Origin: a virus
DNA: 49,375 nt
Direction: 5' to 3' (one strand)
IMG/VR virus record: IMGVR_UViG_3300005262_000002
A model generated the notes under the pieces. It saw only the letters and a program-made list of their open reading frames with translations, was not told the origin of the DNA and did not search any database. Positions within the stretch are counted from its first letter, which is position 1. Each line of letters begins with the position of its first letter. The position numbers and the translations under genes were made by a program. This document shows, piece by piece, positions 12,237-36,650 of this stretch.

Positions 12237-12650
12237 ATGAAGTGGCTGAAATCCAACCAGAACGAATCAACAACAAAGCAGGGAAAGCAGCAGATGTCTT
12301 TTGTAGATGCATACTCCCCGGAAAGGGCGTCGGGTTATGCCAAAAAGCTCTTCCAATCAGTCGTAAAGGGATGGGGGACCTACCCCCTTGCCGTCGATGA
12401 ATGCGCCAAGCGGAGCCGCATGTCCGAGAGAAGTTTCGAGCGCCTGATGAAAGGCGAGACGAAGGACCCGAAGCTGACCATCCTCGGTCGGGTCCGAGGC
12501 GCATACATCCAATACTGCGAAGAGCAGATCTCGCGCCTCCAGCATGAAATCCACATCGAGATGACGAGGAACTCCGATGACGTTTTGGAAACTCTGGCTG
12601 CTGAGGCTGAGGCTTTGGCTGCACGTATCAAGCAAGCGAAGGGAAGGTGA
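12237..12650 (+). CDS. Hypothetical protein (137 aa)
   Basis: Protein-like with a C-terminal coiled coil. An alternative start is MSFVD at 12294. Confidence 0.5.
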   Translation: MKWLKSNQNESTTKQGKQQMSFVDAYSPERASGYAKKLFQSVVKGWGTYPLAVDECAKRSRMSERSFERLMKGETKDPKLTILGRVRGAYIQYCEEQISRLQHEIHIEMTRNSDDVLETLAAEAEALAARIKQAKGR

Positions 12651-12655
12651 TCAGA

Positions 12656-13201
12656 ATGACGGCAGTCGGGCACAACACAGCACTCAACGCGGAAGAGCAC
12701 CAGGCACTCTGGAGCCATCATATCCGCAAGAAGCTCGACATTCATCGCCGTCTCGCAGAGCTCAAGGCTGACGAAAAGAAGATCGATGCGGATCTGAAGA
12801 ACGACGGTTTCTCCAAGTCCGAGATGAAAGACTACATCGACTGCATGACCACCGACGACCCTCAGAAGAAGGTCGACAACTTCAACATGCTCAAGCGCAA
12901 TCGTGTCCGGCTCGGTCTGATCCAGGATGATCGAGGCGCCGATCTCCTCGCGGACCGGGTCACGACCGAGCAGATGATCTATGCCGCCGGTGTCGAGGCG
13001 GGTCTCGCCGCTCTCGATCGCGTCTCCAAGAAGTATCAGGCCGGCAGCACCGAAGATCGGGCGTGGCTTGACGGTTATGACGAGGGCCAGCGCATCGCCC
13101 GAGAGAACCTCCAGTCGGCCATGGAGAAGCGCAACGCCGCCAAGCAGGCCGCGACGAATGAAGAACCAGCGGCTGATCCGGATACCGATCCCTTCGAATA
13201 G
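12656..13201 (+). CDS. Hypothetical protein (181 aa)
   Basis: ATG at 12656, 9 nt after GGGAAGG. The track start at 12647 is a GTG. Confidence 0.55.
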   Translation: MTAVGHNTALNAEEHQALWSHHIRKKLDIHRRLAELKADEKKIDADLKNDGFSKSEMKDYIDCMTTDDPQKKVDNFNMLKRNRVRLGLIQDDRGADLLADRVTTEQMIYAAGVEAGLAALDRVSKKYQAGSTEDRAWLDGYDEGQRIARENLQSAMEKRNAAKQAATNEEPAADPDTDPFE

Positions 13202-13307
13202 CAAGCTCCCTGCACGGCCGCCATCCTCCTCCCAAGCGCGGCCGTCAAACTACCGAGGCGCAAATGCCTCGGTCCTTCTCCCAAAATACCAGACAGACGA
13301 GGGGAAC

Positions 13308-13955
13308 ATGCTCCAGCAAATTTTTACATGGACGGAAGCAAACATTGGGCTCCTACGGGAGATGGTTGCCTCCGGAATGTCAGCAAGCCAGGCAGCCGCC
13401 AAGCTCAGATGCTCGCGCAATGCGGTTATCGGCAAGGCTCACAGGTTGGGCATCAGCTTCGGTCATAGCCGTGGCGCACCGACGAAGCTCAAGCCAGAGA
13501 AGAAGCAGACACAAGCCCCAAAGACACCGTGGACGCCCGAGCGGATCGAGAAAGCCGCTCAGATGTGGCGGGACGGCAAGGCTGCAGAGGCCATTGCAAA
13601 CGCTGTAGGCTGCTCTTTAGCCGCTCTACACTTCACCGCCGGCAAATATCGCGAACAGTTCCCTATGCGCAATCTGCGCCGTGGTCGAGCTACCAATACT
13701 GCCGAAAGCAGCGGCCACACCTTCACCGCAGACTCCGTTCCGTTCCTTCTGCCTGACTTTCCCGGCGTCGAGTTCCAACATCTGGAGCCCCACCACTGCA
13801 AGTTTCCCGTCTCCAATGACGTAGGCGCCTCGATGAAGTGCTGCGGAGCCGATCGCAACACAACCGGCCCTTACTGCGCCGTGCATGCCGCTGTTGCCAG
13901 GGGACGCGGAACCGAGAGCGAGCGCAAGGCTACGAAAATCGGGAGGGCTTGGTGA
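13308..13955 (+). CDS. gcrA: GcrA-family cell-cycle regulator homologue
   Basis: WTEANIGLLREMVASGMSASQAAAKLRCSRNAVIGKAHRLG plus C-terminal CKFPV...MKCCGADRNTTGPYCAVH. Confidence 0.8.
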   Translation: MLQQIFTWTEANIGLLREMVASGMSASQAAAKLRCSRNAVIGKAHRLGISFGHSRGAPTKLKPEKKQTQAPKTPWTPERIEKAAQMWRDGKAAEAIANAVGCSLAALHFTAGKYREQFPMRNLRRGRATNTAESSGHTFTADSVPFLLPDFPGVEFQHLEPHHCKFPVSNDVGASMKCCGADRNTTGPYCAVHAAVARGRGTESERKATKIGRAW

Positions 13956-14560
13956 TGACCCTCATCTTCGGCTTCGACCCGTCCAAGTCTACCGGCTGGT
14001 GCGTCTATGACCCCGACCAGCAGAAGCGGGACCGCAACTTCGCCCATATCAAATGCGGCGTGTTGCAGATGCCCGACAAGGCTGATCACTACTACACCGG
14101 CGATCAGATCGGTCTGAAGGTAGCGGCTCTCATCCGCGAGTATGGCAAGCCCGACTGGGTGGTCCTCGAGGAGCAATCCCTCGCCAAGATCGGCAACACC
14201 AGCGCCGACGCCATGCTCTATCCGTGGATTGCTACCACGGCCATCGTCTCGACGATCGCTAACTTCGGCATTCCATACGGCACGCTTCCCCCAGGCACAT
14301 GGCGCAAGGCCTTCTACGGCCAGACGTTCAAGCCGCCGCTCGACAACAAGGGCAAGAAGGACTGGAAGAGCGCGGCTGTCACCGAGTGCGAGCGCCTAGG
14401 GATCAAACTCCCACCACAGAAGGCTCTTGGACACAACGCGGCCGAGGCGTGCGCTCTCGCCATCTGCTGGGGCGTTCGAGAAATGAAGGTTCACGCCGGC
14501 CGGTACCAGCAGCCGCTTATGGATCTCCGTATGGCTCGAAATGAGAGGGCGGTGGCATGA
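13955..14560 (+). CDS. RuvC-like Holliday junction resolvase
   Basis: MTLIFGFDPSKSTGW, VVLEEQS, HNAAEACALA. TGATG coupling to the upstream gene. Confidence 0.65.
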   Translation: MTLIFGFDPSKSTGWCVYDPDQQKRDRNFAHIKCGVLQMPDKADHYYTGDQIGLKVAALIREYGKPDWVVLEEQSLAKIGNTSADAMLYPWIATTAIVSTIANFGIPYGTLPPGTWRKAFYGQTFKPPLDNKGKKDWKSAAVTECERLGIKLPPQKALGHNAAEACALAICWGVREMKVHAGRYQQPLMDLRMARNERAVA

Positions 14561-15129
14561 GGCTCTTCAACTGGCCGTTCGGCGACCTTCAACCTCATTC
14601 CTTCGATTTCATCATGGCTGACCCGCCGTGGCGATTCCAGCTTCGCTCAGAGAAGGGCGAGGGGAAATCGGCGCAGGCTCATTACCGGACCATGCCACTC
14701 GACGAGATTAACGCGATGCCTGTTCTCGATCTGGCTGCACCGAATTGCACGCTTTGGCTCTGGTGCACCGCGCCGATGCTGCCAAAGCAGATGACGACTG
14801 TACGCGCGTGGGGCTTCTCCTACTGCACAGAAGGTGTGTGGGTGAAGATGACAAAGCACGGAAAGGTGGCTTTCGGCACCGGCTACGGCCTCCGAGGTGC
14901 CCACGAGCCCTTCATCATCGCCAAGCGTGGCGAGCCGAAGCTTACCAAATCCACCCGCTCAGTCATCCACGGTAAAGTGAGGGATCACTCTCGCAAGCCT
15001 GAAGAGGCCTACGCCGAGGCCGAGCGGCTCATGCCAAAGGCTAACCGGCTCGATCTATTTTCGCGCACCAACCGCAACGGCTGGACAGCGTGGGGCGATG
15101 AGGCTGGTAAGTTTGGAGAAGCCGCATGA
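14557..15129 (+). CDS. MT-A70-family N6-adenine DNA methyltransferase
   Basis: IMADPPWRF (DPPW motif), LWLWCT, RDHSRKPEE. Confidence 0.85.
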   Translation: MRLFNWPFGDLQPHSFDFIMADPPWRFQLRSEKGEGKSAQAHYRTMPLDEINAMPVLDLAAPNCTLWLWCTAPMLPKQMTTVRAWGFSYCTEGVWVKMTKHGKVAFGTGYGLRGAHEPFIIAKRGEPKLTKSTRSVIHGKVRDHSRKPEEAYAEAERLMPKANRLDLFSRTNRNGWTAWGDEAGKFGEAA

Positions 15130-16583
15130 ACCAGCTTGCACGCGACTTCTCCACAGACTCCCGCATGATGGACGGCATCTCGGAAGACGACATCTTCCAA
15201 GCCGAGGAGGGCGTCCTAGCAGGCATCCTCAGCAAGAACGACTATCTCGGCTCTTGCGGGCTTGAGCCTCACGACTTCGCCGAGGGGCTTCACCAGAAGA
15301 TCTTCGCATCGATCCAGCAGCTTTGCGCCGGGCACCATATCGCCGACGCGCACACGCTGAAGCCCTTCATGCCGCGGGCTATCGACAACCTTCCCATCTC
15401 CCCATCCGAATACGTGAACCGCCTGCAGAAGGCCGGCCTCTACACCCTCCAGCAGGAATTCGAAGCCAAGGTCCAGATCATCAAGGGCGCTTCGATGTCC
15501 CGCCAGTTGGAACGAGAGGCTGAGTTCATCGGCAACCTGGCGCGAGAAGGCCATACGCTTCTCACGCTCGGAGACGAGATCGAAGGCCTTGAGCAGCGAT
15601 TGAAGGAACTGCAGTCACGGTTCGCCGAGACCAAATCCATCAAGTCTCCCGGCTCTCAGTACCTCGCAGCATTCAACGCATCCGGCCGGCGCAAGAGCAT
15701 CGTAGGTGTTCCAATCGGCCTCACCGAAATCCAGCGTGTGCTGTCGGAATCGGTCTTTGCCGGCGGCAACCTCTATGGACTGCTTTCCTCATCGGGCGAG
15801 GGCAAGACCAGCCTGACGATCCAGATCATCTATCACGCGCTCGTCGAGGGGCACCCGGTCCTTTTCCTCTCCTACGACCAGTCCGCATATCAGTGCGTCC
15901 GCCAGATGGTCGCCCAGGTGCACGGCATCACGGTCAAGCAGCAGGACGAGCCTATGCGGCTCATGACCGAGCAGCAGCGCGACAAGTGCGTGGCCTTCGC
16001 AACATGGATCGAGAAGCAGCCGCTTGAGATCATCCGTTGCCAGCGGGAAGGGGTCTTGCAGCTCACGGCCTACGCCCGACGCTTTATCAAGAAATATGCC
16101 AACGGACGCACGCCGCTCATCGTCCTAGACCACATCGGCAAGGTGAAGCCTCGCGACCCTAAGCTTTCTCCCGATCGGATCTCCGGAGAGGTCACCGTCG
16201 AGCTTAAGGCACTCGCAGACGAGACGCAGAGCGCCTTCCTAGTCCTGAACCAGCGCAACAGCTTCGGCACCCGCCGAGACAACCCACGGCCAATCTCTGC
16301 TGACCTATACGGAGGCGAGGGCGCCAAGGCCGACTATGACGGCATCATCTACCTATACCGAGCCGAGAAGTACAAAGCCGATCGTGTGGCCACCGCCGCA
16401 ACAGATCAGGACTGGAAGAAGATCAACAAGGTGTTCGGGTCGGAGATCGAGGGCATCGCGGAGATCGGCAGCATCAAATGCAGGTTCGGCGATCCCAATG
16501 TCCGCGAGACGCTGAAATTCGAGGCTCAGTTCACCCGATACGTTTCCAATGCGCCAGCGCGCCCGCAGGAGTTGGATTTTTGA
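15126..16583 (+). CDS. dnaB: DnaB-like replicative helicase
   Basis: N-terminal AEEGVLAGIL...LEPHDFAEGLHQKIF. Walker A SSSGEGKTS. VLDHIGKV. Confidence 0.85.
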   Translation: MNQLARDFSTDSRMMDGISEDDIFQAEEGVLAGILSKNDYLGSCGLEPHDFAEGLHQKIFASIQQLCAGHHIADAHTLKPFMPRAIDNLPISPSEYVNRLQKAGLYTLQQEFEAKVQIIKGASMSRQLEREAEFIGNLAREGHTLLTLGDEIEGLEQRLKELQSRFAETKSIKSPGSQYLAAFNASGRRKSIVGVPIGLTEIQRVLSESVFAGGNLYGLLSSSGEGKTSLTIQIIYHALVEGHPVLFLSYDQSAYQCVRQMVAQVHGITVKQQDEPMRLMTEQQRDKCVAFATWIEKQPLEIIRCQREGVLQLTAYARRFIKKYANGRTPLIVLDHIGKVKPRDPKLSPDRISGEVTVELKALADETQSAFLVLNQRNSFGTRRDNPRPISADLYGGEGAKADYDGIIYLYRAEKYKADRVATAATDQDWKKINKVFGSEIEGIAEIGSIKCRFGDPNVRETLKFEAQFTRYVSNAPARPQELDF

Positions 16584-17627
16584 ATGTGGCTCTACGTCCC
16601 GAACACCTCAACATCCTCTCCATCTGCACCGGCGGAGGAGGCCTCGATCTCGGCGTCGAGCTGGCAATTCCAAGCGCTAGAACAGTCTGCATGGTCGAGA
16701 GGGAAGCCTTCGCGGTCGCGCAACTGGTATCAGCTATGGAAGCGGGCCTCATGGCTCCAGCGCCTATATGGAGCGATGCCAGAACCCTTGACGGCCGCGC
16801 ATGGCGTGGCGCTGTTGACGGCTTCATTGGTGGCATCCCGTGCCAGCCTCACAGCCTCGCCGGCAAGAAGCAAGGCAGCAACGACGCCAGAGACCTCTGG
16901 TCAACAGCCCGTCGCCTCATCATCCAGTCGCGCGCGTGGTTCGTCCTCATCGAGAATGTCGCCGGCATGCTCTCTGCGGGGGATGACGAAATCGCTGGAG
17001 CGGAGCGGGTTTACCGAGACCTTCTCAAGCTTGGCTTCCAGGTGGAGGGAGGACTGTTCACGGCGTCAGAGGGCGGCACGAGCCATCAGCGCGAGCGGGT
17101 CTTCATCCTTGGGGTGGCTGACGCCCTCTGCGAACGAGGATGCGGCCGGGACTGTGGATGGGAAGATGCAACGGATGCTCACTCACCAAGCGAAAGAAGC
17201 CTCCGATCAATGGGCAACGCCGCGGGTGTCGTCGGAGAGGACATCATCGATCGCTCTGGAAAGGCCGGACAGCGTGTCGTCACTCTCGATCGCTCAACAG
17301 GCGGAAATCGTCATGGGGGAGGTGCCGAGGGAAATCTACCTCGTGAGCGAAAAGACACAGCGACGGCTTGGATTCGACCCATCTTCCCTCCCGGCCCAGC
17401 CGATCGAGACGGATGGAGAAGTATCCTCGAAAGAGCCCCGGAGCTTGAACCCGCTTTTCGTCGAGTGGCTGATGGGCTGGCCTCGAGGCTGGACATTGCT
17501 CGCGTGGACCGACTTCGCATGCTCGGCAATGGAGTTGTCCCACTTCAAGCAGCGTATGCGATCCGCACTCTTATCACTCGGCTTGCCGCAAGAGGCCCCG
17601 CCGGCGCAGCTCGCCTTGTTCGGATGA
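16584..17627 (+). CDS. Full-length +1-frame ORF overlapping the C5-methylase gene (frame B, 347 aa)
   Basis: ATG directly after the dnaB-like stop (TGAATG). No stop for 347 codons. WLTPSANED, WATPRVSSERT and LNPLFVEWLMGWPRGWT. Codon-position GC favours this frame distal to about 17110. Confidence 0.45.
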   Translation: MWLYVPNTSTSSPSAPAEEASISASSWQFQALEQSAWSRGKPSRSRNWYQLWKRASWLQRLYGAMPEPLTAAHGVALLTASLVASRASLTASPARSKAATTPETSGQQPVASSSSRARGSSSSRMSPACSLRGMTKSLERSGFTETFSSLASRWREDCSRRQRAARAISASGSSSLGWLTPSANEDAAGTVDGKMQRMLTHQAKEASDQWATPRVSSERTSSIALERPDSVSSLSIAQQAEIVMGEVPREIYLVSEKTQRRLGFDPSSLPAQPIETDGEVSSKEPRSLNPLFVEWLMGWPRGWTLLAWTDFACSAMELSHFKQRMRSALLSLGLPQEAPPAQLALFG

Positions 17628-17647
17628 TGGAAGGAATTGACGCATGA
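16586..17647 (+). CDS. dcm: DNA (cytosine-5) methyltransferase (frame A)
   Basis: Motif I LSICTGGGGLDLG, IV GGIPCQPHS, VI LIENV, VIII QRERVFILG, C-terminal FPPGP...RLRMLGNGVVPLQAAYA. Only a GTG start (16586) lies near motif I. Confidence 0.85.
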   Translation: MALRPEHLNILSICTGGGGLDLGVELAIPSARTVCMVEREAFAVAQLVSAMEAGLMAPAPIWSDARTLDGRAWRGAVDGFIGGIPCQPHSLAGKKQGSNDARDLWSTARRLIIQSRAWFVLIENVAGMLSAGDDEIAGAERVYRDLLKLGFQVEGGLFTASEGGTSHQRERVFILGVADALCERGCGRDCGWEDATDAHSPSERSLRSMGNAAGVVGEDIIDRSGKAGQRVVTLDRSTGGNRHGGGAEGNLPRERKDTATAWIRPIFPPGPADRDGWRSILERAPELEPAFRRVADGLASRLDIARVDRLRMLGNGVVPLQAAYAIRTLITRLAARGPAGAARLVRMMEGIDA

Positions 17648-17937
17648 ATAAATTTGACGCCGGTGCCATGAAAACCCCATTGGGCTACATCGCCTTCTAT
17701 CGCCAGGTGCACCGCTCCGCCAACTTCGTTCTCCGGAACGGAAAGCACGACATCATCTTCGCAACCAAGGAAGAGGCGGAGAAGGCGGCGCTGGATGCCT
17801 TCCTCGACTATCTCAACTCGCCGATCGTCTCGGAGTCTCTCACCGGCCCGACCACCAAGCGCGCCGCGGCTAAGAAGTCGGCAGAGGCGATCTTCAGGAA
17901 GGGCAAGCGTATCCCGGTAGAGAGGGCAAGCGCATGA
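17644..17937 (+). CDS. Hypothetical protein (97 aa)
   Basis: ATGA coupling to the methylase gene. Confidence 0.55.
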   Translation: MNKFDAGAMKTPLGYIAFYRQVHRSANFVLRNGKHDIIFATKEEAEKAALDAFLDYLNSPIVSESLTGPTTKRAAAKKSAEAIFRKGKRIPVERASA

Positions 17938-18320
17938 CCATAGCTGTTCGGCAATACGCAACCGGCGCCGAGATCCACGCCAATGCAGTCGCGATCCATA
18001 AGCGGCTGATGAGCCCACGAAACGCGGTCAAGGACACGGCACTCCCCCGCCATATTCATCGCATCGAGGTCAAGCATGAGCCCGCTGATGAGCCGTTGCC
18101 GGTGAAGGAGGACGTGAAGCCCTCGGGCCCGAAATCACCCGCCGTTATGCAACGGCTAGCGGCCATCAAAGAAGTTTATGTCGAAGGCATTTCGGCAAGC
18201 AAGATCGCGGAACTGCTCGGCACGTCAAAGAACGTGATAGTTGGTTTTTATCGCCGCAATCCGGATGAACTGCGACTTTACCCATTGGTCTCTGCTCCTG
18301 GGCGGAAGGGGAAGGAATGA
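17934..18320 (+). CDS. Protein with a GcrA-type HTH at its C-terminus
   Basis: GISASKIAELLGTSKNVIVGFYRRN resembles the GcrA N-terminal HTH (GMSASQAAAKLRCSRNAVIGKAHRLG). Confidence 0.55.
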   Translation: MTIAVRQYATGAEIHANAVAIHKRLMSPRNAVKDTALPRHIHRIEVKHEPADEPLPVKEDVKPSGPKSPAVMQRLAAIKEVYVEGISASKIAELLGTSKNVIVGFYRRNPDELRLYPLVSAPGRKGKE

Positions 18321-18736
18321 TTGATCCACGCGTCATAGCCCTATGCGAGGAGTTCGGCATCGAAGTGCTGGAAAGCACCTCATACCCGAAGCTCGGGCAG
18401 ACGCGCGCCCACGGCACGATCCGGAACATGATCGACACCTTGGGCGAGGATCATGCTCGCATGGTTCTGATGACCTTGGCGGAGACCGCAAACAACAAGG
18501 CCCTGCTAGACGAGGTTGGTCTCTGGATGGCTTCGGACATGGTGAAGCGGTTTGCCCCCGAAATAGAGAAGAACGCCTCTCTGTGGCTCGATACGTGGGA
18601 CAGGATGCCGATAGGCTTCCTTCAATCCCGAGCTCATGAACTGAGAGGCGCTGTGAAGCCACGATTTGCCTTAGGTGGAATGGTATATCTGATGCTGCGG
18701 CAGGTTTACGGGCAGCCCGAGCTAGTGGAGATCTGA
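18317..18736 (+). CDS. Hypothetical protein (139 aa)
   Basis: Coupled ORF with protein-like composition. Confidence 0.55.
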   Translation: MIDPRVIALCEEFGIEVLESTSYPKLGQTRAHGTIRNMIDTLGEDHARMVLMTLAETANNKALLDEVGLWMASDMVKRFAPEIEKNASLWLDTWDRMPIGFLQSRAHELRGAVKPRFALGGMVYLMLRQVYGQPELVEI

Positions 18737-19369
18737 ATGACGCGCGAGGAAATAGCAGAACTCTTCATCCACGCGGCGGAAGTGGATCGGAGATTGCCCA
18801 ACACGGCGAGGCCGGCAAGGCTCAAGGCGCAAGCGCTGCCCTACGTCCACGACCACGTTGACCAAGCTGGATGGGGTGGCCAACGTTACGAGGAAGAGCG
18901 TCAGGCATTCTGGGAGGCTCGGTCTACCCGCCTTCAGGTCAAGGATGTCACCGACTGGGAGAGAGCAAACGATCTGATCGTCCACGTGAGCCGAGAGCGT
19001 GACCGTCGTTGCCTCTGGGCTCATAGCAAATCAAAGGTGGGCGGGATGTCGTTCAGCAAGTGGTGCCGGGACGTAGAACACATCCATCGGAACTACGGGA
19101 AAGAGTGTTCCGACCGTGCAATACATCAAATAAGCGAATATTTCATTCGAAACGCATCAATCGATGTGATGGGAGACGTTCTAGCCACCTTGCAGGAAAC
19201 CCGGGAAATCAGCCATATTCCGGTCATCATAGACGAGGCGCGACGGTGGGCATGGATGGCTCCCGGAGCATTCGTCGAAGCCGCAGACATCGAAGCTAGA
19301 GACTTCTCCTGGGCCGAAACGCAGAACGAGCGACGGCGCCAGAGACTGGCAAAGCAGACAGCGGCATAG
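18737..19369 (+). CDS. Hypothetical protein (210 aa), last gene of the early rightward operon
   Basis: Long ORF directly abutting the previous stop. Possible late regulator by position only. Confidence 0.55.
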   Translation: MTREEIAELFIHAAEVDRRLPNTARPARLKAQALPYVHDHVDQAGWGGQRYEEERQAFWEARSTRLQVKDVTDWERANDLIVHVSRERDRRCLWAHSKSKVGGMSFSKWCRDVEHIHRNYGKECSDRAIHQISEYFIRNASIDVMGDVLATLQETREISHIPVIIDEARRWAWMAPGAFVEAADIEARDFSWAETQNERRRQRLAKQTAA

Positions 19370-21894: not shown

Positions 21895-22386
21895 ATGGCA
21901 GCTCCAAAAGGAAACAAGTTCGCCGTCGGCAATAACGGCGGACGCCCGACGAAGTACGATCCCTCGTATTGCGACGCCGTTGTCGAGCACATGAAGGAAG
22001 GCGCGAGCCTGACATCCTTCGCTGCCTCGATCGGAGTCCACCGCGGAACGATCAACGAATGGATCGATTCCCAATATGAGTTTTCCGAGGCCGTAAAAAA
22101 GGGCAAGGCTTTTTGCGCTGCCTGGTGGGAAGAATTGGGCCGGAAAAACGCCAAGGAAGGCGGCGGAAACGCGACCCTCGTCATCTTCGGTTTGAAGAAC
22201 ATGGCCCGGGAAGACTGGCGCGAACGCCATGAGGTAGAGCACTCCGGTCCAAACGGTGGAGCTATCCCGATCGAAGAGACAACCCGCTCGCCCCGCAACC
22301 TTGCGAGAGAGATCGCATTCGGCCTCGCTGCTGGTATGCGCGCTGCCAAGGAGAGCGATGAGCAGAAGACAGGCGAGCAAGAGTGA
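21895..22386 (+). CDS. terS: Terminase small subunit
   Basis: APKGNKFAVGNNGGRPTKYDPSYCDAVVEHMKEGASLTSFAASIGVHRGTINEW. Confidence 0.8.
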   Translation: MAAPKGNKFAVGNNGGRPTKYDPSYCDAVVEHMKEGASLTSFAASIGVHRGTINEWIDSQYEFSEAVKKGKAFCAAWWEELGRKNAKEGGGNATLVIFGLKNMAREDWRERHEVEHSGPNGGAIPIEETTRSPRNLAREIAFGLAAGMRAAKESDEQKTGEQE

Positions 22387-23945
22387 GCGCTTCCGGCACG
22401 CTCGACGACATCCTCAAGAGCTTCAACGCGCTGCCTGAGGAGAAGCAGACAGAAATACTCTCTGCTGCCCACCAGCTAAGGGACGGGCGCAAATGGCTGC
22501 CTAACCCCGGCCCACAGACGGAAGCTTACTTCTCGGAAGCCGACGAGCTGTTCTATGGCGGTGGTGCTGGAGGAGGGAAGTCGGCTCTGCTTTGCGGTGC
22601 CGCCGTTAACGAGCACCAGAACACGCTTATCCTCCGCCGAGTGGGTAAGAACCTCCGAGGCATCAAACGCGAGCTGCGGACGATCCTCGGGTCATACGAT
22701 GGCTTCAATGATCAGGCGGGCATCTGGCGCCATCCTCGCGGCGTCATCGACCTCGGCCACTGCGAGCATGAGAGCAATAAGGAAGACTATCAGGGCGTCC
22801 CTCACGACCTGAAGGGCTTCGACGAAATCACACAGTTCACGGAAAGCCAGTACACCTACATCATAGGCTGGAACCGATCGGCGGACCCGAAACAACGCTG
22901 CAGGGTGATCGCGACAGGCAACCCACCGACAACCGCCGAAGGGCAATGGGTAACAAAGCGCTGGGGCGCATGGCTCAACCCGAACCACCCGAACCCGGCA
23001 AAGCCCGGTGAACTGCGCTGGTATACGACCATTGATGGCGACGACATCGAGGTGACGCGGGACTACATCGGCCCGAATGGCGAGAAGCCTCGCTCTCGTA
23101 CCTTCATCCCGGCCCTGCTTGAAGACAACCCAGACCTCGCAGAGACCGGATATGCAGCCGTCATCGAGGCCATGCCCGAACCGCTGCGCACAATGATGCG
23201 CTCCGGCCGGTTCGATGTGGCCACGCAGGATGCAGCCTTCCAGGTCATCCCGACGCAATGGATCCTGCAGGCTCAGTCCAGATGGACGCCAAAGGCGCCT
23301 GACCGGATGGGCATGACGGTTCTTAGCCATGACGTGGCGTTGGGTGGTGGAGATGCCAATACCTACGCCCGCAGGCACGGCCATTGGTACGATGAAGTGG
23401 TGTCGGAGCGGCTTAAGGGCGAAGTCGATCCGATAGACCTGGCAGCGCGCACCGTGTCGCTGATGCGCGACGGCTGCGATGTCGTGATCGATATGGGTGG
23501 CGGCTATGGCTCCGGCGTTTACTCGCACCTGAAGCACAACGTCGTCGGCATCCGGCTTCACAGCCACAATGGCTCGGACAAGAGCGGCAAGCGAACGAGA
23601 GACGGAAAGCTCAAGTTCGCCAACAAGCGATCTGAGGTGCACTGGCGCTTCAGGGAGGCATTGGAGCCGAACCTCGGCGAGCCTGTGGCTCTACCTCCTG
23701 ACGCCGAACTGCTGGCCGATCTCGCTGCCCCGACGTGGAAGCTTACGGCAAGCGGAATCCTGATCGAGTCCAAGCTCGACATCAAGAAGCGCCTCGGCCG
23801 CTCTCCCGACAAGGGGGACGCGGTTGTGAACGCCTGGGCCTACGGCGAAAGCGCCGTCGAAGTCCGCATCAAGACGCACAGTGCAAGCAATGGGCGCAAG
23901 CCTACCGTCAACTTGGGCCACGCGGCCATGAAGAAGAGGAGATAG
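22383..23945 (+). CDS. terL: Terminase large subunit
   Basis: GTG start overlapping the terS stop. Walker A YGGGAGGGKSAL. 520 aa. Confidence 0.88.
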   Translation: MSASGTLDDILKSFNALPEEKQTEILSAAHQLRDGRKWLPNPGPQTEAYFSEADELFYGGGAGGGKSALLCGAAVNEHQNTLILRRVGKNLRGIKRELRTILGSYDGFNDQAGIWRHPRGVIDLGHCEHESNKEDYQGVPHDLKGFDEITQFTESQYTYIIGWNRSADPKQRCRVIATGNPPTTAEGQWVTKRWGAWLNPNHPNPAKPGELRWYTTIDGDDIEVTRDYIGPNGEKPRSRTFIPALLEDNPDLAETGYAAVIEAMPEPLRTMMRSGRFDVATQDAAFQVIPTQWILQAQSRWTPKAPDRMGMTVLSHDVALGGGDANTYARRHGHWYDEVVSERLKGEVDPIDLAARTVSLMRDGCDVVIDMGGGYGSGVYSHLKHNVVGIRLHSHNGSDKSGKRTRDGKLKFANKRSEVHWRFREALEPNLGEPVALPPDAELLADLAAPTWKLTASGILIESKLDIKKRLGRSPDKGDAVVNAWAYGESAVEVRIKTHSASNGRKPTVNLGHAAMKKRR

Positions 23946-33720: not shown

Positions 33721-36650
33721 TGGCGGTTCTTCCTACAAAATTTAGCATCAGCCAGCAGCCATCGGGCCGCTCTGGTCGCCAGATTGCCGAATACGACACC
33801 AGTGGCCTTGGGCGTGGCCTCCAGAGCCTCGGCAACTCGGTCTCTGCCATCGGCGAGGACATCAAGCGCCAGCAGAACACGGTCGACGTCGCTCGGGCAG
33901 AGGCTGCGAAGTCGCAAGGCTTCATCGATGCCGAGAATGAGTTTTCGAACGATGGCGACTACTCGACGTTTGGGCAACGTGCTCCCAAGCGAACCGGCGA
34001 TATCGTCACCAAGGCGGCTGACCTTATCCGTGATCCTCAGATGCGCGAGCGCTGGAAGCTTGGCGCGCAGACGGACGCGGCTCGGGTCAACGATTCCATC
34101 GGGGATCGCGGTCGTGCTCTCGGCAAGCAGGCGGAGACTGTAGCCTTCGACGATGCCTTGGAAACGAACCGGCGAATCTATGTCGATCCAAACAGCCCCG
34201 ATGCGGCTAAGGCCAAGGCACGAGCCGACATCGAGGGGGCTATCACGACCGGCGAGAAGAGCGGCCTCTTGACGCCTGCCCAAGCTGCGGATCGCCGGGA
34301 CAAGTTCGTCAAGGGCGCAGACTTCAGCCGGGCAAAGCTCGCCGTCGAGACGAACCCGAAACAGTTCGCCCGCCATAGCGTCACAGATTCCGGCGTGCCT
34401 CCGGAGGGCGCGGCACTGCTCGACACGATCGCCGGCACTGAAAGCCCCGACTACAACACCCTGAATGGCGGTGAGAAGTTCTATGACTTTTCCGATCATC
34501 CTCGGCGTGTTGGCCAAGGCGGTACAGCGACGGCGGCAGGCCGATATCAGTTCGTCAAGGGGACATGGGATCGGGCCAAGGCGGCTACCGGCGTGGAGGA
34601 CTTCTCTCCGGCCTCGCAGGATAAGGCTGCATGGTGGCTCGCTCAGGCAGACTACAAGGCCAGCACTGGCCGCGATCTGCTCAGCGATCTACGCTCCAAA
34701 GACCCGAACACGGTCGCTGGTGTGCGCCGTGCTCTTTCGTCGACTTGGGAAGGGCTGAAGAGCCTCGATGACAATCGGTTTAACGCGAAGCTTGAAGCAG
34801 GCCCGGTAACGACACCGGCCTATTTCAAGAACCTCTCGCCGGAAGAGCAGCAGATCGTCTTTAACCAGGCCGAGGCCCGTCAGCGTGAAATCTCGGTCGA
34901 GCAGCGCGGCAACATTGAGACGGTAGTCCAGAACGCTCCTCAGGCCATCCAGAACACCGGCACCTATGATGGGTCTGTTCCCAGCCGTTCTGAGTTCATG
35001 GACGCCTATGGGGCGCAGGATGGCAATGAGCGCTATAACAAGTTCCAGACGGCTCTAGAGGTCAGCCAGCAAGCCTATAACTTCCGCACCATGTCGGCCG
35101 ATGACATTCAGTCGATGGTCAATGACGCGAAGCCAACGACGAGCGGTAATGATGCGGCACTGGAAACGGCTCGCTATGATGCCCTTCAGACCGCAGCAAC
35201 AAGCACGCTGGCAGCTCGGAAGGCCGATCCCGCAACCTATGCGCAGCAGGCGTTTCCGAACGTTGCCCGCGCCTGGTCCGATGCAGCGACAACCGGCAAC
35301 TATCAGGCCGCCATGAATGCCACGGCGGCCGCACAGCAACAGCTAGGCATCAAGGACATGAAGCTCCTGCCGAAGCAGGTTGCGGATCAGTCTGTTGTTG
35401 CTTTCAAGAACCCGGATGCGACGGACGATCAAAGGCTTGGGGCTGTTAGCTCGCTCGTCTTCTCGACCGCAGACCCTGCGCAACGTCAGGCCGTCTTCAA
35501 TCAGTTGGTTGATGCCGGTCTCCCGGCAATGACGGAAGGCGCTGTCGAAGCTGCTGCCCGTGGTGATAGTGGAGCGGCCAAGCGATTGCTTCAGGCGGCA
35601 TTGACCGACACTGGCAAGCTGCCGAAGTCCGGAGATGTGAAGCCATCGGATATCGATGACGCTCTCTACTCGTCCGTATGGGCGCCGGGAGCGATCGGAG
35701 ATGCGTCCTACGGCGTGGCCTATGGAGACGCGGCAAGCCTTGAGCGGGCGCAGCGCGGCGGCGAGCTGATGAAGAAGGCAACGCAGCTTCGCATTTCGCA
35801 GGGACAGGATCTGGAGACCGCGGTCGCCGGAGCGTCCAAGGATCTCTTCGGCGACAGGAAGGTCTACGACGGCAGCTATGGCGTGAATGCCAATCTGCCG
35901 GTGCCGACGGATACCGACGAGGACACGCTCTATAGCGGGCTGAATTCTGCCAAGACATCGTTCAAGGCAGCACTTGAGCTCCAGCGGGAACGCATCATCG
36001 GCAAGTCCAATGGATCGCCTGCACCGACGGGTGAAATCAAAGGGCTTGTTCAGGCTGGAAACATTGACCTGGCCAATCGGCCTGTCGTCAAAAACGATGA
36101 CGGCTCGATCAGCACGGTTCGTTCCATGTCGTTCAACGAGGACGGCAAAGAAGTCTTGGTGCCGACGGTATCGCCGGACGGGAAGATCCTGTCAGACGAC
36201 GAGGCGATCGATCTGTATCACAAGACCGGCCAGAACCTTGGAGTGTTCGAGGATGCTGCGGCAGCCGACGCTTATGCCATCGCTCTGCACGAAGCACAGG
36301 ATAGCTACTACACGTCCCGCGCAACGGGGCAGAAGGCCATCATCGATCAATCCACGCAGAACCGGGTTGATGACATCCTGGAGAACGGCGTGTTCGTCGC
36401 CTCCGGTGATGGCGTCGGCTTGCGCGATCCATATACCGGTCAGTTTGTGCCGGGGCCGGATGGTGTCACGCCGCTGTCTATCCCGCTTCAGACGATCCTC
36501 GATATGGGCGCCCAGGTCTCGCAGAACACAGGCGGCAACCCGACAAGCGGAAGCGTGGGCGGGCAGGGGCCTTTGATTATCGACATCAATCGCGGTGACA
36601 TTAACCAGCGCGGCCGCCGCGACCAGGATGTGAAGACGTTCAAGCCATGA
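33720..36650 (+). CDS. Internal virion / ejection protein with a lytic transglycosylase (lambda-lysozyme, GH104-like) domain
   Basis: GTESPDYNTLNGGEKFYDFSDHP...AAGRYQFVKGTWD. 976 aa. Confidence 0.7.
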   Translation: MAVLPTKFSISQQPSGRSGRQIAEYDTSGLGRGLQSLGNSVSAIGEDIKRQQNTVDVARAEAAKSQGFIDAENEFSNDGDYSTFGQRAPKRTGDIVTKAADLIRDPQMRERWKLGAQTDAARVNDSIGDRGRALGKQAETVAFDDALETNRRIYVDPNSPDAAKAKARADIEGAITTGEKSGLLTPAQAADRRDKFVKGADFSRAKLAVETNPKQFARHSVTDSGVPPEGAALLDTIAGTESPDYNTLNGGEKFYDFSDHPRRVGQGGTATAAGRYQFVKGTWDRAKAATGVEDFSPASQDKAAWWLAQADYKASTGRDLLSDLRSKDPNTVAGVRRALSSTWEGLKSLDDNRFNAKLEAGPVTTPAYFKNLSPEEQQIVFNQAEARQREISVEQRGNIETVVQNAPQAIQNTGTYDGSVPSRSEFMDAYGAQDGNERYNKFQTALEVSQQAYNFRTMSADDIQSMVNDAKPTTSGNDAALETARYDALQTAATSTLAARKADPATYAQQAFPNVARAWSDAATTGNYQAAMNATAAAQQQLGIKDMKLLPKQVADQSVVAFKNPDATDDQRLGAVSSLVFSTADPAQRQAVFNQLVDAGLPAMTEGAVEAAARGDSGAAKRLLQAALTDTGKLPKSGDVKPSDIDDALYSSVWAPGAIGDASYGVAYGDAASLERAQRGGELMKKATQLRISQGQDLETAVAGASKDLFGDRKVYDGSYGVNANLPVPTDTDEDTLYSGLNSAKTSFKAALELQRERIIGKSNGSPAPTGEIKGLVQAGNIDLANRPVVKNDDGSISTVRSMSFNEDGKEVLVPTVSPDGKILSDDEAIDLYHKTGQNLGVFEDAAAADAYAIALHEAQDSYYTSRATGQKAIIDQSTQNRVDDILENGVFVASGDGVGLRDPYTGQFVPGPDGVTPLSIPLQTILDMGAQVSQNTGGNPTSGSVGGQGPLIIDINRGDINQRGRRDQDVKTFKP

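What the first reader, a model, noticed from the sequence alone, without database searches (positions are those of the whole stretch)
16584..17647. Two full-length same-strand ORFs in different frames across the C5-methyltransferase locus (candidate overprinted gene)
Frame A runs 16586 (GTG) to 17647 (353 aa). Frame B runs 16584 (ATG) to 17627 (347 aa). Both are uninterrupted over the same 1.04 kb. Their start codons overlap in ATGTG immediately after the dnaB-like stop (TGAATGTG), and they share one AGGAG (16567-16571).

Frame A has the complete C5-MTase motif set:
- motif I LSICTGGGGLDLG
- motif IV PCQ at 16838-16846
- motif VI ENV
- motif VIII QRERVFILG
- C-terminal FPPGP...RLRMLGNGVVPLQAAYA

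Frame B is not junk-like. It contains WLTPSANED (17115-17141), WATPRVSSERT (from 17211) and LNPLFVEWLMGWPRGWT (17445-17495). From memory, and unverified, I recognise these as the W-x-T-P and NP-x-F-x-EWLMG-x-P-x-GWT signature of phage proteins annotated as methylases or hypotheticals. Its N-terminus (SSPSAPAEEAS...WSRGKPSRSRNWYQLWKRASW) also resembles the N-termini of such proteins.

The same nucleotides (17457-17495) read EWLMGWPRGWT in frame B and RVADGLASRLD in frame A. Both resemble conserved motifs.

Baseline for this window: every other overlapping ORF longer than 200 codons is antisense, apart from an in-frame N-terminal extension of the gcrA-like ORF (12981..13955). The next-longest same-strand alternative-frame ORF is 200 codons (35974-36576) and reads as Arg-rich junk.
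Basis: partly seen in the sequence, partly recalled or inferred. Interest (0 to 1): 0.9.

Follow-up and report, generated by a model that had tools for sequence, protein, structure and literature searches.

The report
Dual-frame split cytosine methyltransferase gene
One 1-kb phage gene is kept readable in two overlapping frames from start codons 4 bases apart: one frame encodes the catalytic body of a DNA cytosine methyltransferase and the other its probable DNA-recognition part, an arrangement that recurs in about 120 related loci from E. coli prophages to Dehalococcoidia, where standard annotation usually records one frame.

Summary
Frame A (16580/16586-17647) and frame B (16584-17627, +1 relative to A) are both open over about 1.04 kb. 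This is the longest same-strand overlap in the window.

It is not chance, not a sequencing error and not special to this contig. In about 120 independent homologous loci (50-72% GC), both frames stay stop-free end to end, while the third frame carries 5-20 stops. Synonymous-shuffle nulls expected 112, 160 and 104 stops in three tests. The observed counts were 2, 0 and 0.

Codon-position patterns show that amino-acid selection alternates between the frames:
- B: MWLYVP start
- A: motifs I-VIII
- B: WxTP modules
- A: FPPGPxDxxxW
- B: NPLFVEWLMGWPxGWT (motif IX-like)
- A: motif X

Individual B residues are also fixed at A's four-fold sites inside the catalytic domain.

Best explanation: two full-length proteins are made from a conserved NTG-A-ATG double start behind one Shine-Dalgarno site. 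Alpha is the catalytic domain plus motif X. Beta carries the recognition modules plus motif IX. They would assemble like the heterodimeric M.EcoHK31I, whose beta chain lies inside the alpha gene in another frame.

The full-length overlap, the double start and the size of the family appear undescribed. There are no expression data.

The parts
16567..16571 (+). Shine-Dalgarno-like AGGAG, probably shared by both start codons. It lies 8 nt before TTG 16580 and 12 nt before ATG 16584.
   Evidence: Read directly from the sequence. A purine-rich GGAG(G) box at the same distance is visible upstream of the double start in most homologous loci.
16580..16586 (+). Double-start motif NTG-A-ATG (here TTGAATG). 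It holds the A start (TTG 16580), the stop TGA 16581-16583 of the upstream dnaB-like gene (which is in frame B), and the B start ATG 16584.
   Evidence: The string (A/G/T)TGAATGTGGCT(C/G)TA(C/T)(G/A)T(C/T)CC is conserved in nearly all loci examined, including an E. coli prophage with GTGAATG.
16580..17647 (+). Frame A ORF, the proposed alpha chain. It contains C5-MTase motifs I, IV, VI and VIII, a disordered linker, the FPPGPxDxxxW element, motif X and C-terminal helices. Its stop overlaps the ATG of the next gene (ATGA at 17644-17647).
   Evidence: PF00145 matches at E 4.9e-24 over residues 9-179. More than 1500 homologues were found. The AF2 model has pTM 0.64 and Foldseek matches M.HaeIII 1dct at E 3.6e-10.
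16584..17627 (+). Frame B ORF, the proposed beta chain, +1 relative to A. It contains the MWLYVP N-terminus, an N-half with scattered constrained residues, WxTP modules, the motif IX-like NPLFVEWLMGWPRGWT, and a tail.
   Evidence: Full-length homologues were recovered down to about 39% identity by protein search and 27% in viral loci. The B profile finds 23,428 cluster representatives at E<=1e-3. The frame is stop-free in about 120 loci.
16584..16601 (+). Conserved B N-terminus MWLYVP. The region is under frame-B-type constraint.
   Evidence: In A codons 1-15, position A1 (=B3) is the most variable: diversities 0.42/0.22/0.30. The nucleotide string is conserved across loci, with the changes falling at B third positions.
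16631..17119 (+). Segment constrained in frame A (A codons 16-178, motifs I-VIII). B is kept stop-free here and is fixed at individual residues: L32, W48, L61, P68, A71, D157, R161.
   Evidence: A3 is the most variable position in every 15-codon window. B-frame stops: 2 observed against 112 expected, and 0 against 160. Rare codons are invariant at four-fold sites.
17115..17378 (+). Segment constrained in frame B (B codons 178 to about 265): the WxTP modules WLTPSANED and WATPRVSSERT, the probable target-recognition region. Frame A here is an unconserved, disordered linker that is nevertheless kept open.
   Evidence: Close pairs differ at B positions 1/2/3 by 824/829/1554. A-frame stops: 0 observed against 104 expected. 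The A alignment is unalignable here and AF2 pLDDT is 29-41 for A residues 186-267.
17381..17452 (+). Segment constrained in frame A (A codons 266-289): lFPPGPxDxxxW..L..P.LEP.
   Evidence: P268, P269 and P271 have first and second positions at 0-0.25 and third positions saturated at 0.71-0.75.
17445..17495 (+). Segment constrained in frame B (B codons 288-304): LNPLFVEWLMGWPRGWT, motif IX-like. Frame A reads ...AFRRVADGLASRLD here, mostly as a shadow of B.
   Evidence: In A codons 290-304, A2 and A3 (=B1, B2) are about 0-0.1 while A1 (=B3) is 0.2-0.7. In an A-B-A chimera this motif and motif X align as one stretch to phrog_1008 profile positions 261-323 (64 bits).
17498..17593 (+). Segment constrained in frame A (A codons 305-336): RVDRLRMLGNGVVPLQAAYA, which is motif X plus a helix. 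A few B residues are fixed on top of it (S314, L329, also M325).
   Evidence: A3 is the most variable position. pLDDT is 93-95 for residues 320-350. L313 CTC is found in 40/41 loci and T328 ACT in 39/39, fixing B S314 and L329.
17594..17629 (+). Tail where all three codon positions are low in diversity (A codons 337-348; B ...EAPPAQLALFG then stop 17625-17627). Probably constrained in both frames.
   Evidence: A341 GCA occurs in 37/37 loci, L344 CTT in 34/34 and V345 GTT in 35/35. Mean four-fold diversity is 0.13, against 0.42 elsewhere.

Best explanation
The locus is one dual-coding gene for a two-chain DNA (cytosine-5) methyltransferase.

Ribosomes load at a single Shine-Dalgarno site, or re-initiate after terminating the upstream dnaB-like gene at TGA 16581-16583. 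They then start either at TTG 16580 (frame A) or at ATG 16584 (frame B). Both frames are read to the end.

Frame A gives alpha. It contains the AdoMet-binding and catalytic large domain (motifs I, IV, VI, VIII). A roughly 90-residue disordered spacer takes the place of a recognition domain. It is followed by a conserved FPPGPxDxxxW element, motif X and terminal helices.

Frame B gives beta. It contains a conserved MWLYVP N-terminus and a largely tolerant N-half with about a dozen fixed residues. These are followed by a variable number of WxTPxAxD modules, the probable target-recognition region. The motif IX-like NPLFVEWLMGWPxGWT and a short tail complete it.

Alpha and beta then assemble into the active enzyme, as shown experimentally for M.EcoHK31I.

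What is shown: both frames are kept open under selection, amino-acid constraint alternates between them, the double start is conserved, and the arrangement is widespread.

What is inferred: both products are translated, they form a heterodimer, recognition resides on beta, and enzymatic activity needs both chains.
For: 1. Both frames are open end to end in about 49 of 54 loci that were found with frame-A-only peptide patterns. These loci include Rhizobiales, Bradyrhizobium, Parvularcula, Dehalococcoidia, Planctomycetota and Myxococcota. The third frame has 5-19 stops. The same holds in 73 of 76 viral loci found via frame B, at 27-74% B identity and GC 0.50-0.72, where the third frame averages 10.9 stops.

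2. Synonymous-codon shuffle nulls:
- B stops in A's N-half: 2 observed, 112 expected (46 loci).
- B stops in A's N-half, viral set: 0 observed, 160 expected (69 loci).
- A stops in the B-coded middle: 0 observed, 104 expected (41 loci).
- The control (third) frame behaves as expected in all three tests: 162 vs 219, 287 vs 362, and 164 vs 149.

3. Codon-position diversity switches frame at least five times along the gene, in the order B, A, B, A, B, A.

4. B-specific constraint is seen at A's synonymous or variable sites:
- A47 is CTG or TTG, and B W48 is present in 43/43 loci.
- A60 is CCT or GCT, and B L61 is present in 43/43.
- GCT at A31 occurs in 37/37 loci, although GCT is only 19% of Ala codons.
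- GGA at G156 occurs in 41/41 loci.
- ACT at T328 occurs in 39/39 loci, although ACT is only 9% of Thr codons.

5. The NTGAATG double start and the MW(L/I)(Y/H/F) N-terminus are conserved, including in an E. coli prophage at about 55% GC.

6. An A-B-A chimera extends PF00145 from profile 2-163 (85.8 bits) to 2-319 (100 bits). It extends TIGR00675 to 2-319 and joins IX and X in one stretch on phrog_1008 and phrog_10223.

7. The AF2 model of alpha shows a confident Rossmann-type N-half and C-terminal helices with a disordered residue 186-267 segment. Its best fold match is M.HaeIII.

8. There is a precedent. M.EcoHK31I beta is encoded entirely within the alpha gene in another frame. Alpha has I-VIII and X, beta has IX, and both are required (PMC2836561, PMC3404938).
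Against: - No expression data of any kind are available: no Ribo-seq, no peptides, no methylation assay.
- The link between B and canonical motif IX/TRD is modest at the Pfam level. The chimeric C-half alone scores 13.6 bits, E 0.047.
- The B profile finds no solved structure by sequence. The B model has low confidence in the WxTP region (pLDDT 41-57, pTM 0.26) and no fold match.
- A few loci connect the segments differently. L056 has I-VIII, WxTP and IX in one frame. L031, L042 and L122 use three frames. L015 and L003 have N-terminal frame swaps. These could be pseudogenes or assembly errors, but they leave room for other connectivities or for recoding.
- Why beta would carry a 170-residue N-terminal half is unexplained.
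- Homology to M.EcoHK31I itself could not be tested.
Confidence: 0.8

Rival explanations
1. A single methyltransferase polypeptide is made by programmed ribosomal frameshifting. The ribosome would shift A to B (+1) after motif VIII and B to A (-1) after GWT, restoring the canonical order I-VIII / TRD-IX / X.
For: The A-B-A chimera matches PF00145, TIGR00675 and phrog_1008 over the full canonical length and better than A alone. Amino-acid constraint does alternate between the frames.
Against: Constraint switches at least five times, not twice, because the A-coded FPPGPxDxxxW segment lies between the B-coded WxTP region and the B-coded motif IX. That would require four or more shifts.

There is no conserved slippery sequence at either junction. 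Codons 172-180 and 300-305 vary and carry indels.

Frameshifting gives no reason to keep B stop-free through the 170-codon N-half, or A stop-free through the middle. It also gives no reason to conserve an ATG-initiated MWLYVP N-terminus 4 nt from the A start.
Confidence: 0.06
2. Frame B encodes an independent protein whose function is unrelated to methylation, for example an anti-defence or regulatory factor. On this view it is truly overprinted on a self-sufficient methyltransferase gene.
For: B has residues under its own constraint inside the catalytic-domain overlap. AF2 gives pLDDT 80-87 for B residues 21-60 and 84 for 150-160. The B profile has no detectable similarity to solved C5-MTase structures. 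Pfam finds nothing in B.
Against: Frame A alone lacks any conserved region between motif VIII and FPPGP, and it lacks motif IX. B's NPxFVEWLMGxPxGWT aligns contiguously with motif X on phage methyltransferase profiles. B was always found together with A in the 76 loci that were selected through B. The M.EcoHK31I precedent shows that exactly such an embedded chain supplies motif IX (PMC2836561).
Confidence: 0.1
3. Frame B is open only because the DNA is GC-rich, and its apparent conservation is a shadow of frame A. Alternatively, the locus carries sequencing frameshifts or is a pseudogene.
For: The window is 59% GC, and long alternative ORFs are common at that composition. B's N-half mostly varies at B second positions, as a shadow would.
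Against: Shuffle nulls that keep each gene's own codon usage expect 112, 160 and 104 stops where 2, 0 and 0 are seen. The third frame, at the same composition, is full of stops. Members at 48-56% GC, including an E. coli prophage, keep both frames open. The WxTP and motif IX segments show B third-position variability. The same architecture in about 120 independent assemblies excludes sequencing error.
Confidence: 0.01

Closest known systems
M.EcoHK31I (YGGCCR), a heterodimeric C5-methyltransferase of E. coli HK31
   Same: [quoted passage not shown] Both are needed for activity. The N-terminal 42-67 residues of beta are dispensable (PMC2836561, PMC3404938). The division of motifs between the chains is the same here.
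   Different: - Here the second ORF is not nested. It spans the whole gene (347 vs 353-355 codons), starting at its own ATG 4 nt from the alpha start. The published beta is 176 aa inside a 309-aa alpha; these sizes are from my memory of Lee et al. 1995, a paper that was not held.
- The literature places the TRD of M.EcoHK31I on alpha. Here the only conserved sequence between VIII and FPPGP is in frame B.
- B residues are constrained even inside the catalytic-domain overlap.
- Sequence homology between the two systems could not be tested.
M.AquI (CYCGRG), a two-subunit C5-methyltransferase of Synechococcus (Agmenellum) PCC 7002
   Same: It is a natural split of a C5-MTase into two polypeptides that reconstitute activity (PMC3404938).
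   Different: M.AquI is split serially. [quoted passage not shown] According to the original description (my own knowledge), the two genes are adjacent with only a short overlap, not co-extensive in two frames.
Monomeric bacterial C5-methyltransferases (M.HaeIII, M.HhaI; PF00145/TIGR00675)
   Same: Motifs I, IV (PCQ), VI (ENV), VIII and X are present, and the large-domain fold is predicted. A conceptual A-B-A chimera aligns over the whole PF00145 profile.
   Different: No single reading frame of this gene contains all the motifs. The region that corresponds to the small domain is in the +1 frame.
Embedded same-strand phage genes such as lambda Rz/Rz1 (own knowledge)
   Same: A second protein is encoded in the +1 frame inside a phage gene, and the two products work together in one complex.
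   Different: Rz1 is about 60 codons and unrelated in origin to Rz. Here the overlap is about 350 codons, and the two products look like parts of one ancestral enzyme.

Membership tests
DNA (cytosine-5) methyltransferase, PF00145 / TIGR00675 | Motif I (FxGxG AdoMet site), motif IV (PCQ catalytic Cys), motif VI (ENV) and motif VIII (QxRxR), in order in one chain | tested here: met
   Frame A residues 9-179 match PF00145 profile 2-163 at E 4.9e-24. phmmer against M.HaeIII 1dct gives E 5.4e-11. G16/G17/G19, P85-C86-Q87, E123-N124-V125 and R169/R171 are invariant in 31 homologues (P85-C86-Q87 and E123-N124-V125 also in 91).
DNA (cytosine-5) methyltransferase, PF00145 / TIGR00675 | Motif X (GNxV) returning to the large domain | tested here: met
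   Frame A has L313-G314-N315-G316-V317 invariant. The region is A-coded and has pLDDT 93-95.
DNA (cytosine-5) methyltransferase, PF00145 / TIGR00675 | Target-recognition domain and motif IX in the same polypeptide, between VIII and X | tested here: not met
   Frame A residues 179-265 are unalignable and predicted disordered. The motif IX-like NPLFVEWLMGWPRGWT and the WxTP modules are in frame B. Only an artificial A-B-A chimera reaches PF00145 profile position 319.
Two-polypeptide C5-MTase with beta embedded in the alpha gene (M.EcoHK31I type) | [quoted passage not shown] | tested here: met
   Frame B is +1 relative to A and overlaps it by 1044 nt. The arrangement is conserved and under selection in about 120 loci.
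Two-polypeptide C5-MTase with beta embedded in the alpha gene (M.EcoHK31I type) | Alpha has motifs I-VIII and X but lacks IX; beta supplies IX | tested here: met
   The identification of B residues 288-304 as motif IX rests on contiguous alignment with motif X on phrog_1008 and phrog_10223, and on the PF00145 extension. The Pfam signal for the C-half alone is weak (13.6 bits).
Two-polypeptide C5-MTase with beta embedded in the alpha gene (M.EcoHK31I type) | Both polypeptides are made, associate, and are required for methylation | not testable with these tools
   This needs expression, pull-down and methylation assays. The only evidence here is evolutionary: both frames are kept open and constrained.
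Two-polypeptide C5-MTase with beta embedded in the alpha gene (M.EcoHK31I type) | Sequence homology to M.EcoHK31I alpha and beta | not tested
Lee et al. 1995 (PMC306636) is not held, and PMC2836561 has no supplement held.
Programmed ribosomal frameshift gene | A conserved slippery site at the frame junction, with the zero frame closing soon after it | tested here: not met
   The junction codons vary and carry indels. Both frames stay open for the whole gene.
De novo overprinted gene | The new frame has a narrow phylogenetic range and no homology to older proteins | tested here: not met
   Frame B is found from E. coli prophages to Dehalococcoidia, with 23,428 cluster representatives. Its core aligns with methyltransferase motif IX. 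The constrained residues of B's N-half could still be overprinted, but that was not resolved.

The most novel reading that the evidence does not exclude
This would be the founding example of a very large, apparently unrecognised family of fully co-extensive same-strand overlapping gene pairs. The pairs span about 250-470 codons and are represented by thousands of protein clusters. They occur in phages and prophages of at least five bacterial phyla. In this family an ancestral one-chain enzyme has been distributed over two reading frames read from a double start codon. Both frames are under amino-acid selection on the same nucleotides, even inside the catalytic domain. The N-terminal half of beta would then be a new, overprinted, functional domain. 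If so, it would be among the longest and most widely conserved dual-coding regions known in prokaryotic or phage genomes, and most annotated 'DNA cytosine methyltransferase' genes of this type would be missing their partner.
Probability: 0.55. Interest if true: 0.9.

Novelty: new variant of a known kind. Interest (0 to 1): 0.85.

Why it matters
Long same-strand overlapping genes are usually dismissed in bacterial and phage annotation, and well-supported examples are short or rare. Here comparative evidence from about 120 loci shows a 1-kb gene kept open and constrained in two frames.

- Annotation. RefSeq lists only the alpha frame in the E. coli prophage examined. Where the beta frame is annotated, it is called a hypothetical protein. 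PHROGs carries beta-frame families as 'unknown function'.
- Methylome and restriction-modification work. Cloning or predicting specificity from the annotated ORF alone would miss the probable recognition subunit.
- Evolution of overlapping genes. The family is a natural system for asking how one enzyme becomes split across two frames, and how two proteins share codons by alternating 'constrained' and 'tolerant' segments.
- Engineering. A naturally heterodimeric methyltransferase with a modular recognition chain carrying 1-6 WxTP modules could be useful for targeted methylation, the purpose for which M.EcoHK31I was already explored.

Tried and rejected
- Chance or GC-driven ORF. Rejected by the shuffle nulls and the third-frame control and by members at about 50-56% GC.
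- Sequencing error or pseudogene in this contig. Rejected by the same architecture in about 120 independent loci.
- Double ribosomal frameshift. Considered seriously because the A-B-A chimera fits PF00145. Rejected as the main mechanism after the per-codon map showed at least five alternations and no conserved slippery sites.
- Pfam and NCBIfam on frame B: no hit.
- B profile against PDB sequences: no hit even at E<=10.
- Foldseek with the B model: nothing significant. The model is also too weak to trust (pTM 0.26).
- tblastn of B's C-half against phage and plasmid collections: only 2 and 3 records, of little use.
- Attempt to read Lee et al. 1995 on M.EcoHK31I, and the supplement of PMC2836561, to obtain the sequence: not held.
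- Literature searches for a described family of dual-frame methyltransferases found only the M.EcoHK31I and M.AquI precedents.
- A formal overlap-aware dN/dS (OLGenie-type) was not implemented. Codon-position diversity and four-fold-site invariance were used instead.
- The third homologous-protein search was deliberately not spent.
Full report
**1. Observation**

Reading the window confirms the finding.
- Frame B is open from ATG 16584 to TGA 17625-17627 (347 aa).
- Frame A is open from GTG 16586 to TGA 17645-17647 (353 aa).
- Homologues begin MNVALR, and a 355-aa, 100% identical protein (P0121) exists. The real A start is therefore most likely TTG 16580.
- TTG 16580 overlaps the dnaB-like stop TGA 16581-16583. 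The B ATG follows that stop directly, giving the string TTGAATG.
- AGGAG lies at 16567-16571.
- The pair is the longest same-strand, different-frame overlap in the window: 1044 nt, against 603, 588 and 540 nt for the next three.

**2. What each frame looks like on its own**

Frame A matches PF00145 only over residues 9-179, which is profile 2-163 of 324. Frame B has no Pfam or NCBIfam hit.

Against PHROGs:
- A matches methyltransferase families such as phrog_363 and phrog_116.
- B matches phrog_27243 ('unknown function', E 8e-19, residues 167-336).
- On phrog_1008, B residues 286-307 fall on profile 261-282, and A residues 299-335 fall on profile 287-323. The two frames thus hit adjacent parts of one profile.

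Protein searches found more than 500 full-length relatives of B, down to about 39% identity, all without Pfam domains. They found more than 1500 relatives of A, annotated as DNA cytosine methyltransferase.

The alignments are complementary.
- A is strongly conserved in residues 1-178 and from about 266 to the end. Residues 179-265 are unalignable, Arg/Gly-rich and full of indels.
- B always starts MWLYVP. Exactly where A is junk, B has a variable number of W-x-T-P-x-A-x-D modules. These are followed by RRSLNPLFVEWLMGWPPGWT and a conserved tail.

**3. Is the double openness selected?**

I collected loci with frame-A-only peptide patterns (GGIPCQPH, IENVxGML) from one genome per species.
- Of 54 loci whose A match spans both termini, about 49 have A and A+1 (=B) open over the whole gene. 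The third frame has 5-19 stops.
- The hosts include Rhizobiales, Bradyrhizobium, Parvularcula, Dehalococcoidia, Planctomycetota and Myxococcota.
- A second, independent set of 76 viral contigs was found through frame B, with B identity 74% down to 27% and GC 0.50-0.72. In 73 of them both frames are open. Frame A always carries IV and X and nearly always VI and VIII (motif I and FPPxP were not picked up in every locus). Frame B nearly always carries WxTP and the motif IX-like element. The third frame has a mean of 10.9 stops.

Shuffling synonymous codons within each gene is a conservative null, because it keeps the gene's own adapted codon usage. Results:

| Test | Loci | Observed stops | Expected stops | Control (third) frame, observed vs expected |
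|---|---|---|---|---|
| B stops in the 170-codon N-half | 46 | 2 | 112 | 162 vs 219 |
| B stops in the N-half, viral set | 69 | 0 | 160 | 287 vs 362 |
| A stops in the middle region (B codons shuffled) | 41 | 0 | 104 | 164 vs 149 |

Both frames are therefore kept free of stops along their whole length, including the parts where they encode nothing conserved.

**4. Which frame is under amino-acid selection, and where?**

The frame relation is A1=B3, A2=B1, A3=B2. Nucleotide diversity per codon position over 43 loci gives a clean map.

| Segment | Frame under constraint | Evidence |
|---|---|---|
| First ~10 codons (MWLYVP) | B | A1 (=B3) most variable |
| A codons 16-178 (motifs I-VIII) | A | A3 most variable |
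| WxTP region | B | Close pairs differ at B positions 1/2/3 by 824/829/1554 |
| A codons 266-289 (lFPPGPxDxxxW..L..P.LEP) | A | Pro third positions saturated at 0.71-0.75 |
| A codons 290-304 = B 290-304 (NPLFVEWLMGWPxGWT) | B | A2, A3 near 0; A1 variable |
| A codons 305-336 (RVDRLRMLGNGVVP..., motif X) | A | A3 most variable |
| Last ~12 codons | Probably both | All three positions low |

On top of this alternation, single B residues are fixed inside A-coded segments. Rare codons are invariant at A's four-fold sites, or B is more conserved than A at the same site.

| A site | Codons observed | B residue fixed |
|---|---|---|
| A31 | GCT 37/37 (GCT is 19% of Ala codons) | L32 |
| L47 | CTG or TTG | W48, 43/43 |
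| P60 | CCT or GCT | L61, 43/43 |
| G70 | GGC 41/41 | A71 |
| G156 | GGA 41/41 | D157 |
| A160 | GCG 43/43 | R161 |
| T328 | ACT 39/39 (ACT is 9% of Thr codons) | L329 |

The overlap is thus mostly an interleaving of 'constrained in one frame, tolerant in the other', with local true double constraint.

**5. The start region**

The string (A/G/T)TG-A-ATG-TGG-CT(C/G)-TA(C/T)... is conserved in nearly all loci, with a GGAG-type box 6-9 nt upstream of the first start.
- In the loci that carry the full NTG-A-ATG motif, the B start is ATG, while the A start varies among ATG, GTG and TTG. Some more distant loci use GTG for B.
- The TGA inside the motif is in frame B. In this window it is also the stop of the dnaB-like gene. 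In phage Yong-M2-251 it is the stop of the upstream RuvC gene.
- Termination-reinitiation could therefore feed both starts. This is an inference.

An E. coli prophage (strain PT62) shows the same design at about 55% GC.
- The annotated 245-aa 'DNA cytosine methyltransferase' starts at GTG.
- An unannotated +1 ORF of 251 aa starts 4 nt later. It reads MSWLFSQ...ECGLWPTAKA...LNPQWVEWFMGWPIGWTELKPLAMDKFREWQ.

**6. Relation to canonical methyltransferases**

I built a conceptual chimera from A 1-176, B 178-304 and A 304-353.
- It matches PF00145 as one stretch over profile 2-319 at 100 bits. A alone gives 85.8 bits over profile 2-163.
- It matches TIGR00675 over profile 2-319 at 77.8 bits, against 66.8 for A alone.
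- It matches phrog_1008 profile 261-323 as one stretch at 64 bits.
- The chimeric C-half alone gives only 13.6 bits (E 0.047). The pure A and pure B C-halves give nothing for PF00145.

AF2 results:
- With a 91-sequence alignment, A folds into a confident Rossmann-type N-half and C-terminal helices (pLDDT up to 95). Residues 186-267 are disordered (pLDDT 29-41). pTM is 0.64.
- Foldseek puts M.HaeIII, DNMT1 and M.HhaI catalytic domains first for A.
- B gives only local confidence: residues 21-60 at 80-87, 150-160 at 84, and 290-300 at 84. pTM is 0.26. It has no fold or sequence match in the PDB.

**7. Mechanism**

The data fit two full-length products: alpha from frame A and beta from frame B.
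- Alpha contains everything that forms the large domain of a C5-MTase (motifs I-VIII and X). It has a spacer in place of the small domain.
- Beta contains what looks like the small-domain part: the recognition modules plus motif IX.
- This division has an experimental precedent. [quoted passage not shown] Alpha has I-VIII and X, beta has IX. Both are needed for activity, and the N-terminal 42-67 residues of beta are dispensable (PMC2836561).
- M.AquI and M.EcoHK31I are described as the only exceptions among characterised, otherwise monomeric C5-MTases (PMC3404938).

A single chain made by frameshifting is unlikely for three reasons. It would need four or more shifts. No slippery site is conserved at the junctions. 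It would not explain why each frame is kept open where it is not 'used', nor the conserved double start.

Translation, assembly and activity remain inferred.

**8. Variants and open points**

A few loci connect the segments differently.
- L056 (Myxococcota MAG) has I-VIII, WxTP and IX in one frame, and WPPGP plus GNAV in the -1 frame.
- L031, L042 and L122 use three frames. The B N-half and the first WxTP modules run into FPPGP and motif X, while IX lies in the third frame.
- L015 carries motif I in the other frame.
- In L003 the MWLYVP start runs into the A body. The annotated protein P0149 begins MWLYVPHLSTSSPSAPGGAGLDLG.
- L046, L051 and L061 are broken.

These may be decayed copies or assembly errors, or they may show that connectivity is flexible. 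I could not decide between these.

The role of beta's N-terminal half, and of its fixed residues, is unknown. The number of WxTP modules varies from 1 to 6 between homologues and is 2 here. That would suit a modular recognition region, but this is speculation.

**9. Scale and novelty**

A profile of frame B finds 23,428 representatives of 50%-identity clusters at E<=1e-3, 9,483 at <=1e-10 and 2,338 at <=1e-30. Some of the weak hits may be one-frame enzymes that share the motifs.

Full-text searches found no description of this family or of the double start. They found only the M.EcoHK31I and M.AquI precedents. The paper library is incomplete, so earlier recognition, for example in REBASE, cannot be excluded.

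I rate the finding a new variant of a known kind. The principle of a C5-MTase made of two chains from two frames of one gene is known from one enzyme. Four things appear new:
- the co-extensive overlap;
- the conserved double start;
- the placement of the recognition modules on beta;
- the double constraint inside the catalytic domain, together with the breadth of the family.

**10. Context**

The gene sits in a tightly packed phage early/replication operon:
- RuvC-like resolvase, 13838-14560
- a second methyltransferase, 14557-15129
- DnaB-like helicase, 15126-16583
- the dual-frame gene
- small unknown ORFs from 17644, whose ATG overlaps the A stop
- terminase large subunit, 22383-23945

The closest isolated relatives are Synechococcus phages Yong-M2-251 and Ssp-JY39, at about 81% nucleotide identity over 75% of the gene. 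One record annotates frame A as a methyltransferase. The other annotates a hypothetical protein that corresponds to frame B (P0067).

Noticed in passing
window 14557-15129 (+): A second DNA methyltransferase gene (phrog_359, E 4.6e-65) lies two genes upstream of the dual-frame gene. Its start overlaps the stop of the RuvC-like gene and its stop overlaps the dnaB-like start. The phage therefore carries at least two methyltransferases in one translationally coupled operon.
   Followed up: partly
window 12237-19369 (+): There is a chain of ORFs whose stops and starts overlap or abut: 12647/12650, 14557/14560, 15126/15129, 16580/16583 and 17644/17647, and so on. This pattern suggests translational coupling through the whole early module. 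The stop of the dnaB-like gene is part of the double-start motif of the methyltransferase.
   Followed up: partly
L158 1888-2647 (E. coli PT62 prophage, NZ_CP090448.1 1254489-1255248): RefSeq annotates only the 245-aa 'DNA cytosine methyltransferase'. A 251-aa +1 ORF starts 4 nt later (MSWLFSQ...LNPQWVEWFMGWPIGWTELKPLAMDKFREWQ) and is unannotated. It matches phrog_1008, phrog_26627 and phrog_35493.
   Followed up: yes
PHROG families phrog_27243, phrog_26627, phrog_35493 (unknown function) and phrog_1008 (DNA methyltransferase): These families appear to be built largely from frame-B products of this kind of gene. In phrog_1008, profile positions 35-141 match the N-half of the E. coli frame-B protein. 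Positions 261-282 match motif IX and positions 287-323 match motif X. Some members may therefore have B-type sequence and motif X in a single frame.
   Followed up: partly
L056 942-1994; L031 503-1939; L042 2369-4040; L122 2001-3300; L015 2428-3753; L003 2496-3664: These loci are natural connectivity variants of the same gene.
- L056: I-VIII, WxTP and IX are fused in one frame, with motif X in the -1 frame.
- L031, L042 and L122: three-frame arrangements.
- L015: motif I is in the other frame.
- L003: the MWLYVP start runs into the methyltransferase body (annotated protein P0149).

Whether these copies are functional, decayed or assembly errors is unknown.
   Followed up: partly
alignment A2/A3, B residues about 178-270; loci L080-L157: The number of W-x-T-P-x-A-x-D(-x-K-G) modules in frame B varies from 1 to 6 between homologues. 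This window has 2. All the indels keep both frames open. The pattern is reminiscent of the tandem recognition domains of multispecific phage methyltransferases (own knowledge, untested).
   Followed up: no
frame B residues 21-62 and 147-171 (window 16644-16769 and 17022-17096): AF2 predicts confident helices (pLDDT 80-87) in the part of B that overlaps the catalytic motifs of A. This coincides with the B residues that are fixed at A's synonymous sites (L32, W48, L61, D157, R161). It may be a real structured element, or it may be an artefact of shadow conservation in the alignment.
   Followed up: partly
Its long N-terminal extension overlaps ORF 12647-13201 in another frame.
   Followed up: no
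L001 (Synechococcus phage Yong-M2-251) 2994-4133 and phage Ssp-JY39: Two near-identical phage records annotate the same locus differently. One annotates frame A as 'cytosine-specific DNA methyltransferase'. The other annotates a 'hypothetical protein', which corresponds to frame B (P0067). The sequence is Rhizobiales-like for phages reported from a cyanobacterial host.
   Followed up: no
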